From: the human T2T-CHM13v2.0 reference genome, Homo sapiens | Assembly (NCBI RefSeq): GCF_009914755.1 | Contig: NC_060941.1 | Direction: 5' to 3' (one strand) | DNA length: 64,000 bases | In this document: one piece after another, positions 27,751 through 33,700 of the stretch | Position numbering within the stretch: position 1 is the first letter of the stretch | How the letters are laid out: each line of letters opens with the position of its first letter | Translations under genes and position numbers: made by a program | Notes under the pieces: generated by a model | Databases searched by the model: none | Told to the model about the DNA's origin: nothing | Seen by the model: only the letters and a program-made list of their open reading frames with translations

Positions 27751-28594
27751 AAAGGAAGATCCTACAAAATAGGTTGTTTATCCCCTAGAATTCAACTCTT
27801 ATACAGATCTGCACCATGGACTCAGTGACCAACCCACTGTGAAAGTGGGTCCAGAGGAAGAAGAATGATATTCTAGCCACTAAAGCAGAAAAATGCAGGA
27901 ATGTGTCAGGGCGCCATTCCTCACATGGGTCAGGATGGGTGCCAAGTTCATGGCCAGATGGTAGAGAAGGAAACATAGAGCTGTTTGTCCAGTCCATCAC
28001 TTGTGTGAGGTTGGGCAAGTCATTTAACATCCTCAACCTTGAGTTTCTTCACTTGCAAACTGGGCATAAGGTAATAACGTCTGCCTTGCCAACCTCACAT
28101 TGTCAATGTGAGGATTCTATGAGATATGATCTGTAAACCTGATGTGTGGAAGGTGTTATTACTCTTACGCTTTCCAAAGAAACCCCTGATCCTCCATTGA
28201 GGCCTCTGCTTGCTCTTCCTTCTTTCCTTCAACCATTATTTATTGTGCAGAAGCCCTCTTTTCAAACCACATTCTGCTCCGTCTGCAAATCAATGCATTA
28301 ATATCATGCATTCCAATGGACATTCTGCTGTATATAGTCTTTTGGGAGTCTGCTTTTTTATGTGTAAGTCCTTTATGGTCCGATTAGTTTGGAGAGAACT
28401 TTTAGAAGACATTATTTGGCCTAAAAGCAGGGGGCCAGTTCTGAGATCTGGTGACCCCATACGGTATTCTAGGAGGCTCTGCTTGGTCTTTGTCATATCT
28501 GCTACCTGCAGAAATGCCTCCACTGAAGAGCCACTTATTGTCACCTCAGCTCTAACTAAAGACTAATATGAAAAGTATCATTTAACAGACAGAT

Positions 28595-29130
28595 AGTATG
28601 GCTTCAAGAGTTTGGGGCTTGAGAATCAGAAGCATCTGACTCAAATCCTTGCTGTGACAATTAAAACTGGGGGACCTGCTGAATGTTAAGCCTTATGCTC
28701 TTTGAGTATCAGCTTTTTTTTCTTTTCTAAAGCTCAAGGCCAAGTGCAATGACTCACGTCTGTAATCCCAGAGCTTTGGGAAGCTGAAGCAAGAGGATTG
28801 TTTGAGGGCAGGAGTTCAAGATGAGCCTGGGCAACATGGGAGACCCTGTGCTACAAAAATACTTTTTAAATTAGCTGGACATCATGATGTGCACCTGTAG
28901 TCCTAGCTACATGGGAGGCTGAGGCAGGAGGATCGTTTGAGCCCTGGAGTTTGAGATTATAGTGAGCCATGATCCTACCACTGCACTCCAGCCTGGACAA
29001 CAGAACAAGACTGTCTCCAAAGAAAATAAAAATAAAGTGTACAACTGTGATTGAAATTCAATTAGATAAAATATTTATCTAGAAGAGTGCTGGCGCCTTT
29101 ATAGTCGGCTAGCAAAAAAGGGTAACTATC
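28595..29130 (+). mobile_element. MIR interrupted by an Alu (28738-29036)
   Basis: MIR-like halves on both sides of an AluJ-like element. Confidence 0.65.
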
Positions 29131-29161
29131 ACCATCTATCATCCTGATTTTTTCTTTTTTT

Positions 29162-29455
29162 AGAGATGGGGTCTTGCTATGTTGCCTAGGCTGGAGAGCA
29201 GTGGATATTCACCAGCGTGATCCCACTACTGATGAGCATGGGAGTTTTGACCTGCTCCATTTCTGTCTTGGTTTACCCCTCCTTAGGCAACCTGGTGGTC
29301 CCCAGCTCCTGGGAGGCCACCATACTGATGCCAAACTTAGTGCAGATACTTGATCAGGGTAGCGCATTACAGCCCAGAACTCCTGGACTCAAGCAATCCT
29401 TCTGCCTCAGCCTCCCCAGTAGCTGGGACCACAGGCACTCGCCACCATGCCCAGC
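29162..29455 (-). pseudogene. Full-length 7SL (SRP RNA) processed pseudogene, with A-tail at 29147-29161
   Basis: Contains the 7SL S-domain absent from Alu (gatcccactactgat..ccttaggcaacctggtggtcccc..accatactgatgccaaacttagtgc) between Alu-like ends. Confidence 0.93.
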
Positions 29456-29589
29456 ACCATGACTAATACTAACACATGGCCATGCCCTCAGCCATTGCTT
29501 ATTATGGCAGAAAAGATCTAAGATGCCACATGATAAACTGCTCTTTCAGGGAAAGAAGTCTTCCCTAAGGAACTACTAAACTTATTTTT

Positions 29590-29990
29590 ACTCATCTAGG
29601 AGAAAATATTGAAACCCTGTCTGCCTAAAAAATACCAGAGCTTCTTGGGGAATCTAGCCCACGTTGCTAAAAAGTGACACGAAGAATCAGCATCTGATGT
29701 CAGAGGTATTCACCAAGATTCAACTGATGGGGAAGTTCTCCCTGTTTCCCAGCTCACTACAGCTCCAAGCGGGTGAGGGCCAGTGTACACAGGGATGTAC
29801 CTGGAGCTTGGGAGTGGGGAGAGAAACCAACAGAACCAGTCCCAATCTTTGAGGAGCCCCCAATCTTGAGGGAAGGAATAAAGTTCCTGTCTTCAGGGAG
29901 ACCCCCATCTGATGGCAGAGACATAGTCCATGCCACTAGAGACTCTCTAGTATGATTGGACAGACAAAAAGGACCAAAACAGGATGCTGT
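29590..29990 (+). pseudogene. Inverted, decayed genomic copy of TTLL6 exon 33331-33700 (3' part) plus the following intron
   Basis: Collinear with the reverse complement of 33118-33540 (44/57 identical in the one block I counted); peptide LLKSDTKNQHLMSEVFTKIQLMGKFS vs LLKSDMNKPHLISELLTKLQLSGKLS; frameshifted. Confidence 0.9.
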
Positions 29991-30190
29991 GCCTGGCCTT
30001 TTCTGCTAAGAGGTTCAGAGCTAAATTCAACGGTCAATGCAGGAAGCACTTTATCACACCCTCTTCATATAATGATCTCTTCCCTTTCTTCGTGTGGCTT
30101 CTGATCATTATTATTTCATTTAACAGTCCTACTGAATACAAGTTTTCATTGTAATGTGCTACATCATCCTTTTTTAAATAGTAGAAACAG

Positions 30191-31130: not shown

Positions 31131-31705
31131 CTGGATGTTTCCTTGCAGGCCCTCCTGCAGTGTGAGCTACTGGTCACAAGGGGCCAGGTCAGAGTATCTG
31201 CTCACAGTAAGCTTTGCGTGGCAGGGTGGAGGGAGACGATTCACATCTCTAGCCTTCTTCTTTAGACAGTCAAGCAGCAAAGATCCCTTAATTCCACAGC
31301 TCTATGTTGTGGAGTTCTCCGAAGTTTTTACATATGACCTTCCCTCAGAAGCACTGAAGTTCAGACGGAGGGCATCTTACCATCTCCTGGGGCCTTTTGC
31401 ACGGTGGAACCAAAGCTTCTCAAAGGCCTTTGGTTCCACATCTCAGTCTCTGCTGTCCTGTTGCTCTGTCCCCTCAGCACACTCCATTACAGGGCCAGCC
31501 TTTGGGGCAAGTGATCTAGGCCTAGACCAGGCGGCATAGCTTGAAGGATGTGAAAATCAACCCATTATGGTTGACATGGTTCTACTTCTGGGATCTCCAT
31601 ATATGACTATCTCAATTTTAGCCATAAGTGGAAGACAAGGCAAAGTGCCTAGTGGGGGCAGATCAGCTCTACCAGAAATATATTAATACATAGCAAGGGG
31701 GTCAC

Positions 31706-32443
31706 TTTTTTTTTTGGAGACAGAGTGCTGCTCTGTCACCCAGGCTGGAGTGCAGTGGTGCAATCCCGACTCACTGCAACCTTCAGCTCTGGGCTCAATC
31801 AATCCTCCTACCTTGGCCTCCCAAGTAGCTAGGACCATAGGCATGCTCCACCACACCCAGCTAATTTTTTAATTATTATTATTATTTTTTTGAGACGGAG
31901 TCTCACTCTGTCACCCAGGCTGGAGTGCAGTGGCACAATCTCAGCTCACTGCAACCTCTCCCTCCCGGGTTCAAGCAATTCTCCTGCCTCAGCCTCCCGA
32001 GTGGCTGGGACCACAGGCGGGTGCCACCATGCCCAGCTAATTTTTTGTATTTTTAGTAGAGACGGGGTTCCACTGTGTTAGCCAGAATGGTCTCGATTTC
32101 CTGACCTCGTGATCCACCCACCTCGGCCTCCCAAAGTGCTGGGATTACAGGCATGAGCCACTGCACCCGGCCTAATTTTTAAATTGTTTGTAGAGACAGG
32201 GTCTTGCTATGTTGCCCAGGCTAGTCTTGAACCCCTTGCATCAAGTAATCTTCTCGCCTCAGCCTCTCAAGTAGCTGGGACCACAGGCATGTGCCACCAC
32301 ACCCAGCTAATTTTTAAATTTTTTGTAGAGATGGGGTCTCCCTTATGTTGCCCAGGCTGGTCTCAAACTCCTGGGCACAAGGGATCCTCCTGCCTTGGCC
32401 TCCCAAAGTGCTGGGATTATAGGCATGAGCCACTGCACCCAGC
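31706..32443 (-). mobile_element. Nested Alu cluster
   Basis: Several antisense Alu arms. Confidence 0.9.
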
Positions 32444-32591
32444 CAGGGTCACATTTTTACTAAGTCTTCATTGTCTACTTACCTGTATGTCTTTATCAAT
32501 CCATCCATCCTCCTACCTACCCAACATTCCAGAAAAACACAGAGCACCTGCCAACGCACCAAATTCATTAAGGGAATATGTGTGGGCCTAC

Positions 32592-32857
32592 CTAGCTCCT
32601 CTCACATCCTTTTTGGCCAGAGATCAGGCAATGGCTGTATGCTTCTTGATCCTGCATACATGGGTCCCTCATAGCACTTGCGTGGCTTCTACAAGGCCTT
32701 GGATCCAGTTGGGCTGGAGTGGCAATCACCAGCAGGTCCCTCAGAGTAACATTATAGCTCTGAGGACTCTGCAAGAGGAGGGAGGACACATCCAGCTGCC
32801 TCTTCTCGCCAGAGCTGTCACTGCGGGAGTGGCACTCCCCAGGCAGGGAGGGGTTTT
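32592..32857 (-). CDS. TTLL6: TTLL6 last coding exon (266 nt; [19 protein letters not shown])
   Basis: tttccag| acceptor in phase 1; TAG stop at 32592-32594 immediately followed by the donor gtaggc. Confidence 0.92.
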
Positions 32858-33330
32858 CTGGAAAGGCAAAGTCAGAAGCATCAGCGATTTGTGCTGCTGG
32901 ATTCAGCACAAATTCCTGGTGAAGACCACCTCCCAGTAGGGTCCCATGGCCTGTAACTGCCATTCAAAGCTCTTTGAGCCAGAATCAGCCATTGCTCCTT
33001 TTCTCCAAATAGTTTTTCTTCCCCATTTTTTCATACTTAACATCAGTAACTGGTGCAGCCTCAGCTGAATGAGCCTCATGTGAATGAGAACCAGGAAGTG
33101 GTGAAGAAGGGAACTGGACAGCAATCTGTTTTTATCTTTTTTGTCTTCCCAATCAGACTAGAGACTTCCTAATGGTATGGACTGTGTCTCCACCATCAGA
33201 CTGGGGTTTCCCTGAAGACAGGGGCTGTCCCCCCTCCAAAGACTGGGAGCTCCCCAAAGATTAGGACTGGTTCTATCGGTCCCTCTCCCCTTTAAGCTCC
33301 TGGCACATCCCTGTACACACTGGCACTCAC

Positions 33331-33700
33331 GTGACAGGTTATTCATCCCCAGCTTGGGGTTGTAGTGAGCTGGGAAGAAGGAGAGCTTCCCACTCAGTTG
33401 AAGCTTGGTGAGTAGCTCGGATATCAAATGTGGCTTGTTCATGTCACTCTTTAGCAAAGTCCAGTTTGTGTTCGGACTCTCCCAGAAGCTCTTGGATTTT
33501 GTGGGCAGAAAAGATTTTAACATTTTCTTCTGGGTTAAGTGTGGAGGGGTCTGCTGCTTCTTGCATTTAAAGGATACCACCCTGTCCGTCTCTGGGCCAC
33601 TGTACTCAGAGCTGGCGGTCACAGCCAGGGTTGGCGGAGACTTTGGGGAGATTGAGAGTTGGGTGGTGGATTCTGGGGTGGTTTCTACGGAGGTTAAGTG
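33331..33700 (-). CDS. TTLL6: TTLL6 coding exon (370 nt; HLTSVETTPES..PKLGMNNLS)
   Basis: ttcttccag| and TCAC|gtgagt; open frame; phase 0 to 1. Confidence 0.92.

What the first reader, a model, noticed from the sequence alone, without database searches (positions are those of the whole stretch)
28500..33660. TTLL6 carries an old inverted copy of its own last two coding exons inside its last intron (decayed gene-internal palindrome)
Seen: 29590-29990 (+) is collinear with the reverse complement of 33118-33540, covering both exon and downstream intron, so this is a DNA-level duplication and not a retrocopy. Shorter collinear anchors found by eye extend the arm: 28539-28561 vs 33600-33623 (18/24), 28575-28585 vs 33567-33577 (10/11), 30418-30447 vs 32948-32980, and 31152-31198 vs ~32785-32829. 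Both arms lie in the same pre-mRNA. Inference: they can fold back, masking the 33331 donor and looping out the stop-codon exon. Skipping that exon (phase 1 into 26531) would give an alternative C-terminus RNNVSLPTVSPVFTESTEVLFAHLDILVFH*. The duplex could also be an ADAR or Dicer substrate in testis or ciliated cells.
Basis: partly seen in the sequence, partly recalled or inferred. Interest (0 to 1): 0.85.

Follow-up and report, generated by a model that had tools for sequence, protein, structure and literature searches.

The report
Decayed inverted exon-intron fragment in TTLL6
TTLL6 carries, in its last intron, one old, decayed, back-to-front copy of about 430 bases spanning the end of one coding exon and the start of the next intron; it is most likely a harmless relic, and it does not cover two exons as first claimed.

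Summary
The core observation is real. 29592-30001 (+) matches the reverse complement of 33107-33537 (blastn E 1e-72, nhmmer E 2.7e-66; 78% identity over 404 ungapped columns). These are the only two copies found in the genome. Neither lies in a listed masked repeat, and the copy has no poly(A) tail. It is therefore a DNA-level inverted duplication.

It covers only the 3' 207 nt of exon 33331-33700 plus 224 nt of the following intron. The title "last two coding exons" is therefore wrong.

The arms can pair in silico: 344 bp including a 52-bp helix, with the donor's +1..+5 paired. In a 6.66-kb context, Alu-Alu pairing displaces them entirely, and the arms-paired fold is 94 kcal/mol less stable. 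The substitutions show no bias towards keeping pairs (28 against 24).

RefSeq instead lists an isoform that skips both exons.

Verdict: probably a neutral relic, roughly 55-125 My old. Interest is low to moderate.

The parts
33107..33537 (-). Parent arm: the 3' 207 nt of the penultimate coding exon (33331-33537) plus the first 224 nt of the following intron (33107-33330). It includes the 5' splice site at 33331/33330.
   Evidence: nhmmer and global alignment; exon coordinates from RefSeq; open reading frame of the exon.
29592..30001 (+). Inverted, decayed copy (pseudo-exon fragment plus intron fragment) inside the last, 3'-UTR intron 26582-32591. It is antisense in the TTLL6 pre-mRNA. Relative to the parent it has a 19-nt and a 7-nt deletion, with frameshifts and stops in all three frames.
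   Evidence: No other genomic copy. No poly(A) run after 30001.
33239..33290 (-). Right half of the longest predicted uninterrupted helix: 52 bp, 8 of them G.U. It is intronic and pairs with 29816-29867.
   Evidence: RNAcofold of the two arms.
29816..29867 (-). Left half of the 52-bp helix, as transcribed in the TTLL6 pre-mRNA.
33325..33333 (-). 5' splice site of exon 33331-33700 (CAC|GTGAGT). Intron positions +1..+5 are paired with 29773-29777 in the two-arm fold. The last 19 exon bases are bulged because the copy lacks them.
32592..32857 (-). Stop-codon exon lying in the 3.1-kb spacer between the arms. It has NO copy of its own. The TAG stop is its last three bases, followed directly by the GT donor.
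30002..33106 (.). Spacer between the arms, 3105 nt. 1261 nt of it is listed as masked repeat (30186-30389, 30522-30809, 31673-32238, 32248-32450).
27103..27753 (.). Alu cluster that pairs with the Alu cluster at 31706-32444 in the 6.66-kb fold. This pairing crosses the arm-to-arm pairing and displaces it.

Best explanation
A roughly 430-bp piece of TTLL6, spanning the 3' end of its penultimate coding exon and the start of the next intron, was copied at the DNA level. The copy was inserted in reverse orientation about 3 kb downstream (about 1.8 kb before the Alu insertions, if these came later), in what is now the 3'-UTR intron. A replication or repair template switch is the likely cause; that is inference. 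Since then both copies have drifted at the same, apparently neutral, rate. The copy is a dead pseudo-exon fragment. It gives the pre-mRNA one more long, imperfect, Alu-pair-like complementary region that can form at most transiently and has no demonstrated role: a neutral relic. Shown here: existence, extent, uniqueness, decay, and in-silico pairing with its dependence on context. Inferred: mechanism of origin, age (about 55-125 My) and neutrality.
For: A significant two-copy inverted match. No other copy in the genome, with 2 of 2 first-look candidates for the left arm being the two arms themselves. Neither arm lies in a listed masked repeat. It is the only sizeable non-repeat self-match in the 64-kb window: 1 of 4 hits after masking, the other three being 82-120 nt, one of which (28715-28833) lies in an Alu-like stretch. 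Intron is included and there is no poly(A) tail. The copy has deletions, frameshifts and stops. Exon and intron parts have diverged equally (77.8% against 78.6% identity), and differences are flat over codon positions (11/59, 14/61, 15/60). Transitions that keep a G.U pair in the sense transcript number 28, against 24 that give A.C (p=0.68). In the 6.66-kb fold, arm-to-arm pairs drop from 337 to 0, and the arms-paired fold is 94 kcal/mol less stable. The same pre-mRNA holds several inverted Alu pairs with an equal or better energy gain per nt, -0.57 to -1.06 against -0.57. No Rfam family lies in either arm.
Against: Taken alone, the arms form a very stable duplex: gain -234.5 kcal/mol against -9.2 +/- 3.5 for 30 shuffles, 344 bp, and a 52-bp helix without a mismatch. 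That is long enough for dsRNA-binding proteins. The duplex covers a used 5' splice site and brackets the stop-codon exon, and RefSeq lists an isoform lacking exactly the two exons concerned. In the intronic half, 21 transitions are G.U-compatible against 10 that are not; I computed no separate test for this half, so it is suggestive at most. The left arm is transcribed before the competing Alu cluster at 27.1-27.7 kb, so pairing could win kinetically. Nested-fold models also cannot represent both duplexes coexisting. Neutrality was not tested against orthologues, because no other mammalian genome was available here.
Confidence: 0.7

Rival explanations
1. Splicing regulator. In a fraction of transcripts the arms pair, occluding the 33331 donor and looping out the stop-codon exon. 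This favours the annotated isoform that skips both exons (48529 to 26581, NM_001366314.2), which ends in a different 33-residue tail.
For: Donor +1..+5 are paired in the two-arm fold and the arms bracket exon 32592-32857. The skip-both isoform is in RefSeq. Passages of PMC8052449 report lower inclusion of exons looped out by long-range complementary regions and an obstructive effect on splice sites.
Against: The pairing is lost in the larger context. There is no overall bias towards keeping pairs. The 473-nt intron after 33331 can be spliced before the left arm, 3.1 kb downstream, is made (inference). The same paper reports that complementary regions are depleted at actively used splice sites. 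No expression data were available here.
Confidence: 0.1
2. Promiscuous ADAR substrate. The duplex is edited A-to-I as inverted Alu pairs are, possibly including the 207 exonic nucleotides, so that the left arm acts as a distant editing-complementary sequence. The editing would be mostly without consequence.
For: 344 predicted bp with helices of 52, 23, 20, 17, 16 and 14 bp; the 20-bp and 16-bp helices lie in the exon part. The energy gain per nt equals that of local Alu pairs. Complementary regions are enriched for A-to-I sites (PMC8052449 passages).
Against: No editing table could be consulted. No paper in the library holds both 'TTLL6' and 'A-to-I' (0 papers), though supplements are closed. 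The exonic helices are short. Alu pairing competes. The exonic part leaves the duplex once splicing occurs.
Confidence: 0.17
3. circRNA promoter. The arms flank exon 32592-32857 and promote its back-splicing.
For: The geometry fits: the arms lie 250 nt upstream and 2.6 kb downstream of the exon. Complementary regions are enriched outside circRNAs (PMC8052449 passages).
Against: No paper names a TTLL6 circRNA (0 papers). Alus lie closer to the exon and offer other pairings.
Confidence: 0.02
4. Not a duplication of the gene at all: two copies of a dispersed repeat, a chance match, or a retroposed unspliced transcript.
For: A roughly 50-110-nt stretch of the intronic part resembles a tandem-repeat unit found on chr19 and chr6.
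Against: The match runs 430 nt, well beyond that stretch. E is 1e-66 to 1e-72 and 0 of 50 shuffles reach the score. Only two genomic copies were found, with the caveat that closed regions are not shown. The arms are not in the list of masked repeats of 100 nt or more. There is no poly(A) at the copy's 3' end.
Confidence: 0.01

Closest known systems
Inverted Alu pairs in introns (long imperfect intramolecular dsRNA; linked from recall to ADAR editing, exon skipping and circRNA formation)
   Same: Two arms of a few hundred nt at 72-90% complementarity in one pre-mRNA. The predicted energy gain per nt is similar: -0.57 for the arms, -0.57 to -1.06 for five local Alu pairs.
   Different: Not a transposable element. 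Unique in the genome. One arm contains coding exon and a used 5' splice site.
Conserved long-range complementary regions in human pre-mRNAs (PCCRs; PMC8052449, abstract and passages seen)
   Same: Complementary stretches kilobases apart in one gene, which bracket an exon and overlap a splice site.
   Different: PCCRs are defined on conserved intronic sequence with exons excluded (only 10 nt into exons). They are much shorter and are reported as depleted at active splice sites. Here conservation is untested, half of one arm is exon, and the arms come from a duplication. TTLL6 is not mentioned in that text (0 occurrences). The catalogue itself (track hub, supplements) could not be seen.
Editing-site complementary sequences (ECS) of recoding targets such as GRIA2 (recalled, not from a call)
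   Same: An intronic stretch complementary to part of an upstream coding exon in the same transcript.
   Different: No edited site is known here. The distance is 3.3 kb, in a non-adjacent intron. The exonic helices are at most 20 bp. A search for 'editing complementary sequence' with 'inverted duplication' found 0 papers.
Inverted repeats flanking the mouse Sry exon that drive its circular RNA (recalled, not from a call)
   Same: A non-TE inverted duplication bracketing an exon.
   Different: From recall, those arms are far longer and nearly perfect. Here they are 0.4 kb at 78%, and no circRNA is known.
Unprocessed pseudogene fragments / small ancient intragenic duplications
   Same: A DNA-level copy with intron included, decayed by indels, frameshifts and stops.
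   Different: It is inverted, lies within the parent gene's own transcription unit, and so is antisense to its parent in cis.

Membership tests
DNA-level intragenic inverted duplication (unprocessed pseudo-exon fragment) | Two copies in opposite orientation, similar beyond chance | tested here: met
   E 1.2e-72, E 2.7e-66, 0 of 50 shuffles
DNA-level intragenic inverted duplication (unprocessed pseudo-exon fragment) | The copy carries intron sequence and lacks a poly(A) tail, so it is not a retrocopy | tested here: met
   224 intronic nt aligned at 78.6%; no A-run after 30001
DNA-level intragenic inverted duplication (unprocessed pseudo-exon fragment) | Not a member of a dispersed repeat family | tested here: met
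   Only the two arms match each other genome-wide. They are absent from the list of masked repeats of 100 nt or more. Caveats: closed regions are not shown, and no repeat library was available.
   No hit in the intron, the window or the genome; the flanks are at chance
   Only 33331-33537 (207 of 370 nt) aligns. 33538-33751 finds only itself.
Segmental duplication (from recall: at least 1 kb and at least 90% identity) | Length and identity thresholds | tested here: not met
   0.43 kb, 78%
Functional long-range RNA structure regulating splicing | Complementary arms in one pre-mRNA with a stable predicted duplex | tested here: inconclusive
   Stable alone and in 4.26 kb. 0 arm-to-arm pairs, and 94 kcal/mol less stable when forced, in 6.66 kb.
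Functional long-range RNA structure regulating splicing | Evolutionary conservation with compensatory substitutions | not testable with these tools
   No other mammalian genome was available. The within-genome proxy (G.U-compatible against A.C transitions, 28 against 24, p=0.68) shows no bias.
Functional long-range RNA structure regulating splicing | Splicing changes when the pairing is disrupted and restored | not testable with these tools
   This needs a minigene or genome editing.
Editing-complementary sequence (ECS) | An intronic complement of an exon in the same transcript | tested here: met
   The exon part pairs, with helices of 20 and 16 bp
Editing-complementary sequence (ECS) | A documented A-to-I site in the paired exon | not testable with these tools
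   No editing table was available; 0 papers hold TTLL6 with A-to-I; supplements are closed

The most novel reading that the evidence does not exclude
The antisense pseudo-exon is a gene-born, non-Alu, long-range complementary element that TTLL6 uses in cis. By pairing with the exon-intron junction at 33331, it would shift the balance between the full-length C-terminal tail and the annotated isoform lacking both tail exons. It might also direct A-to-I editing into the coding exon, so acting as an editing-complementary sequence created by inverted self-duplication.
Probability: 0.07. Interest if true: 0.55.

Novelty: new member of a known kind. Interest (0 to 1): 0.25.

Why it matters
If the arm is only a relic, it mainly serves as a caution. 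A real 0.4-kb inverted match was stretched by eye into a 5-kb 'palindrome' of two exons, which statistics do not support. It also shows that a predicted long-range fold can vanish when 2.4 kb more context is added. Two smaller points follow. First, exon and intron have diverged equally since the duplication, and differences are flat over codon positions. This suggests that this stretch of the TTLL6 C-terminal tail has evolved nearly neutrally on the human lineage. Second, if the pairing did act on splicing or editing, it would be a clean case of a regulatory RNA duplex born from a gene's own sequence and not from a transposon. That could be tested with one deletion and one compensatory construct.

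Tried and rejected
1. This was rejected. The one result in its favour, 6 of 200 mononucleotide shuffles for the right-flank chain, is outdone by the direct and reversed-only controls.

2. Dispersed repeat or chance match: rejected. Only a minisatellite-like unit of about 50-110 nt inside the arms has relatives elsewhere.

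3. Retroposed unspliced RNA: rejected, because there is no poly(A) tail.

4. Selection for pairing, judged from the direction of transitions: no signal overall. Identity in 50-column windows runs from 0.74 to 0.84, which I judged to be within sampling noise.

5. Known RNA family in the arms: none. The only Rfam hit in 28400-33800 is the 7SL pseudogene.

6. Dating or polarising with orthologous proteins failed. The search for homologous proteins with the 123-residue exon translation gave no scored hit: 1 candidate, and 12 left out as sample-only. The length filter makes this blank uninformative. A full-length TTLL6 could not be given by reference because it is spliced, so I did not repeat the search.

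7. Soft-masking of stretches under 100 nt could not be read, because window.fa has no lower case.

8. Literature:
- 'TTLL6' + 'inverted repeat': 2 papers, both on RFX and ciliogenesis by title and abstract start in the listing.
- 'TTLL6' + isoform + C-terminal: 12 of 120 listed, none about this (listing only).
- circTTLL6 variants: 0.
- 'editing complementary sequence' + 'inverted duplication': 0.
- 'TTLL6' + 'A-to-I': 0.
- 'TTLL6' + 'exon skipping': 3 papers; I read the one TTLL6 passage of PMC9513239, which concerns expression only.
- Supplements are closed, so editing, circRNA or PCCR tables that might list this locus were not seen.

Full report
OBSERVATION. An inverted self-BLAST of 25000-34500 returns 197 HSP rows. 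The pair 29598-29990 against 33531-33118 (73.6% over 420 columns, E 1.2e-72, 265 bits) is the second best. The other top rows fall in intervals listed as masked repeats. The repeat finder shows part of the pair as I14: 120 nt at 78%, one of 91 inverted pairs, 25 of which were shown. I ran nhmmer with the sense strand of 32451-33751 against the last intron 26582-32450. It gives exactly one hit at E<=100: 29592-30001 against 33537-33107, E 2.7e-66. In a global alignment, 316 of 404 ungapped columns are identical (78.2%), with 33 gap columns, 52 transitions and 36 transversions, and K2P 0.26.

WHAT IS COPIED. RefSeq puts a coding exon at 33331-33700 (minus strand) and the stop-codon exon at 32592-32857. 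In the select transcript NM_001130918.3 the last exon, 25842-26581, is untranslated. The right arm is therefore the last 207 nt of exon 33331-33700 plus the first 224 nt of the next intron, with the 5' splice site in the middle. The left arm reads in the sense of that exon on the + strand, so it is antisense within the TTLL6 pre-mRNA. It lies in the last, 3'-UTR intron. Relative to the parent it has lost 19 nt at the exon's very end and 7 nt further upstream. Its translation matches the parent peptide only in pieces spread over three frames, with stops in each.

EXTENT. I removed the Alu and 7SL insertions from the flanks and scored them. The best local alignment of the left flank is reached by 44 of 300 dinucleotide shuffles, and that of the right flank by 57 of 300. 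The core control is reached by 0 of 50 shuffles. A collinear-chain score gives 100 of 200 shuffles for the left flank. For the right flank only 6 of 200 mononucleotide shuffles reach the inverted score of 42.2, but the direct-orientation (61.9) and reversed-only (52.0) controls exceed it. Three queries find only themselves in the whole window at E<=10 on both strands: exon 32592-32857 with 100-nt flanks, the 5' part of exon 33331-33700, and the rest of the intervening intron. The stop-codon exon also finds only itself in the genome. "An inverted copy of its last two coding exons" is therefore not what is there. The copy covers about 56% of one exon and part of one intron.

WHAT KIND OF THING. 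Genome-wide, each arm finds only the other arm. The exception is a 50-110-nt intronic stretch that resembles a tandem-repeat unit on chr19 and chr6. The caveat is that matches in closed regions are not shown. Neither arm is in the list of masked repeats of 100 nt or more. After masking repeats, a self-BLAST of the full 64 kb leaves 4 hits. This pair is the only sizeable one; the other three are 82-120 nt, and one of them (28715-28833) lies in an Alu-like stretch. The copy includes intron and has no A-run after its 3' end. Rfam finds nothing in the arms; its only hit in 28400-33800 is the 7SL pseudogene at 29161-29455. This is a small DNA-level inverted duplication. It is not a transposon pair, not a retrocopy and not a chance match.

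AGE AND CONSTRAINT. Divergence is JC 0.257 over all columns and 0.246 over the 391 non-CpG columns (82 differences), or about 0.12-0.13 per arm. The exon part (77.8%) and the intron part (78.6%) are equally diverged. Differences in the exon part are flat over codon positions: 11/59, 14/61 and 15/60. Both arms, including this stretch of the coding tail, therefore look as if they drifted nearly neutrally. With recalled neutral rates of 1.0-2.2e-9 per site per year, this gives roughly 55-125 My. That is an inference, not a measurement. The neighbouring 7SL pseudogene is 85-86% identical to three chr14 loci, presumably the 7SL genes. Orthologues could not be examined, and the only attempt at orthologous proteins came back blank for reasons of query length.

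RNA PAIRING. Folded together, the arms as transcribed gain -234.5 kcal/mol over their separate folds, whereas 30 shuffled left arms gain -9.2 +/- 3.5. They form 344 intermolecular pairs (161 A-U, 154 G-C, 29 G-U). The helices are 52, 23, 20, 17, 16 and 14 bp long. The 52-bp helix (8 G.U, no mismatch) is intronic: 33239-33290 with 29816-29867. Intron positions +1..+5 of the 33331 donor are paired, and the last 19 exon bases bulge out. Per nucleotide, the gain of -0.57 equals the weakest of five local inverted Alu pairs, which range from -0.57 to -1.06. In the minimum-energy fold of the 4.26-kb stretch 33760-29500, 337 arm-to-arm pairs persist. When the stretch is extended to 27100 (6.66 kb), they all disappear. 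The Alu cluster at 31.6-32.4 kb then pairs with the cluster at 27.0-27.7 kb, a topology that crosses the arm pairing. Forcing the 52-bp helix restores 341 arm-to-arm pairs, but the fold is then -2641.4 against -2735.5 kcal/mol, which is 94 kcal/mol less stable. But the duplex is context-dependent and has strong competitors. Two qualifications apply. The left arm is transcribed before the 27-kb Alus, and nested models cannot show the two duplexes coexisting. Of the 52 transitions between the arms, 28 keep a G.U pair in the sense transcript and 24 give A.C (p=0.68). The split is 21 against 10 in the intron part and 7 against 14 in the exon part. There is no overall sign that pairing has been preserved.

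THE PROPOSED ISOFORM. Exon 33331-33700 begins in phase 0 and ends with one extra base. Joining it to the RefSeq acceptor at 26581 gives a 40-residue tail in frame 2 of the last exon. It is obtained only by joining to 26531, an acceptor-like CAG|G site 50 nt inside the exon that none of the 10 RefSeq transcript models uses. The annotated alternative, NM_001366314.2, joins 48529 directly to 26581. It drops both tail exons and ends in a 33-residue tail in frame 0. If the duplex has any effect, this is the isoform it would be expected to favour. The splice sites themselves look ordinary.

COMPARISON WITH THE KNOWN. The object behaves like an inverted Alu pair, or like the long-range complementary regions catalogued in human pre-mRNAs. 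According to the abstract and passages of PMC8052449, those regions suppress looped-out exons, obstruct weak or cryptic splice sites, are depleted at active sites, are enriched for A-to-I sites and lie outside circRNAs. That catalogue excludes exons and requires conservation. Its text does not mention TTLL6, and the catalogue itself could not be seen. From recall, the object also resembles an editing-complementary sequence and the inverted repeats around the Sry exon. No paper in the searched library describes this TTLL6 feature, a TTLL6 circRNA or TTLL6 editing; supplements were closed.

VERDICT. The finding is a real but much smaller feature than claimed. I put about 0.7 on a neutral relic, about 0.1 on a modest effect on splicing, and about 0.17 on detectable but probably inconsequential editing. 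It is a new, unreported member of a known kind, and the interest is low to moderate.

Noticed in passing
window 32592-32594 and 26582-32591: In the select transcript, the TAG stop codon is the last three bases of exon 32592-32857 and is followed directly by the GT donor. The whole 6-kb last intron is therefore a 3'-UTR intron that begins right at the stop.
   Followed up: partly
window 48529 to 26581 junction; 26480-26581: RefSeq NM_001366314.2 skips both tail exons (33331-33700 and 32592-32857) and reads 33 residues in frame 0 of the last exon. The gene thus has two quite different annotated C-termini.
   Followed up: partly
window 33185-33237 and about 29870-29925; L003 (chr19:719264-719316), L004-L010 (chr6 and chr19 arrays): A stretch inside both arms resembles a unit of about 42 nt from tandem arrays on chr19 (47.534 Mb, spacing 84) and chr6 (42.54, 43.90 Mb), and is 91% identical over 53 nt to chr19:719264-719316. 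Because both arms carry it, it predates the duplication. No call established a family name.
   Followed up: partly
window 29161-29455 (-): A full-length 7SL (SRP RNA) pseudogene, RN7SL125P: Rfam Metazoa_SRP 183.8 bits, model positions 1-299. It is 85-86% identical to three chr14 loci and sits 137 nt to the left of the left arm.
   Followed up: partly
window 27103-27753 with 31706-32444; 30172-30387 with 30534-30823; 27464-27581 with 31882-31999: The last intron is dense in inverted Alu pairs, up to 86% over 118 nt, with one pair only 272 nt apart. These dominate the predicted long-range structure of this part of the pre-mRNA.
   Followed up: partly
window 33331-33537: The exon part of the parent arm has diverged from the copy as much as the intron part has, and differences are even over codon positions. 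This suggests weak constraint on this stretch of the TTLL6 C-terminal tail. It has not been checked against orthologues.
   Followed up: partly
window 26531/26532 (-): An acceptor-like site (pyrimidine-rich run followed by CAG|G) lies 50 nt inside the last exon. No RefSeq model uses it.
   Followed up: yes
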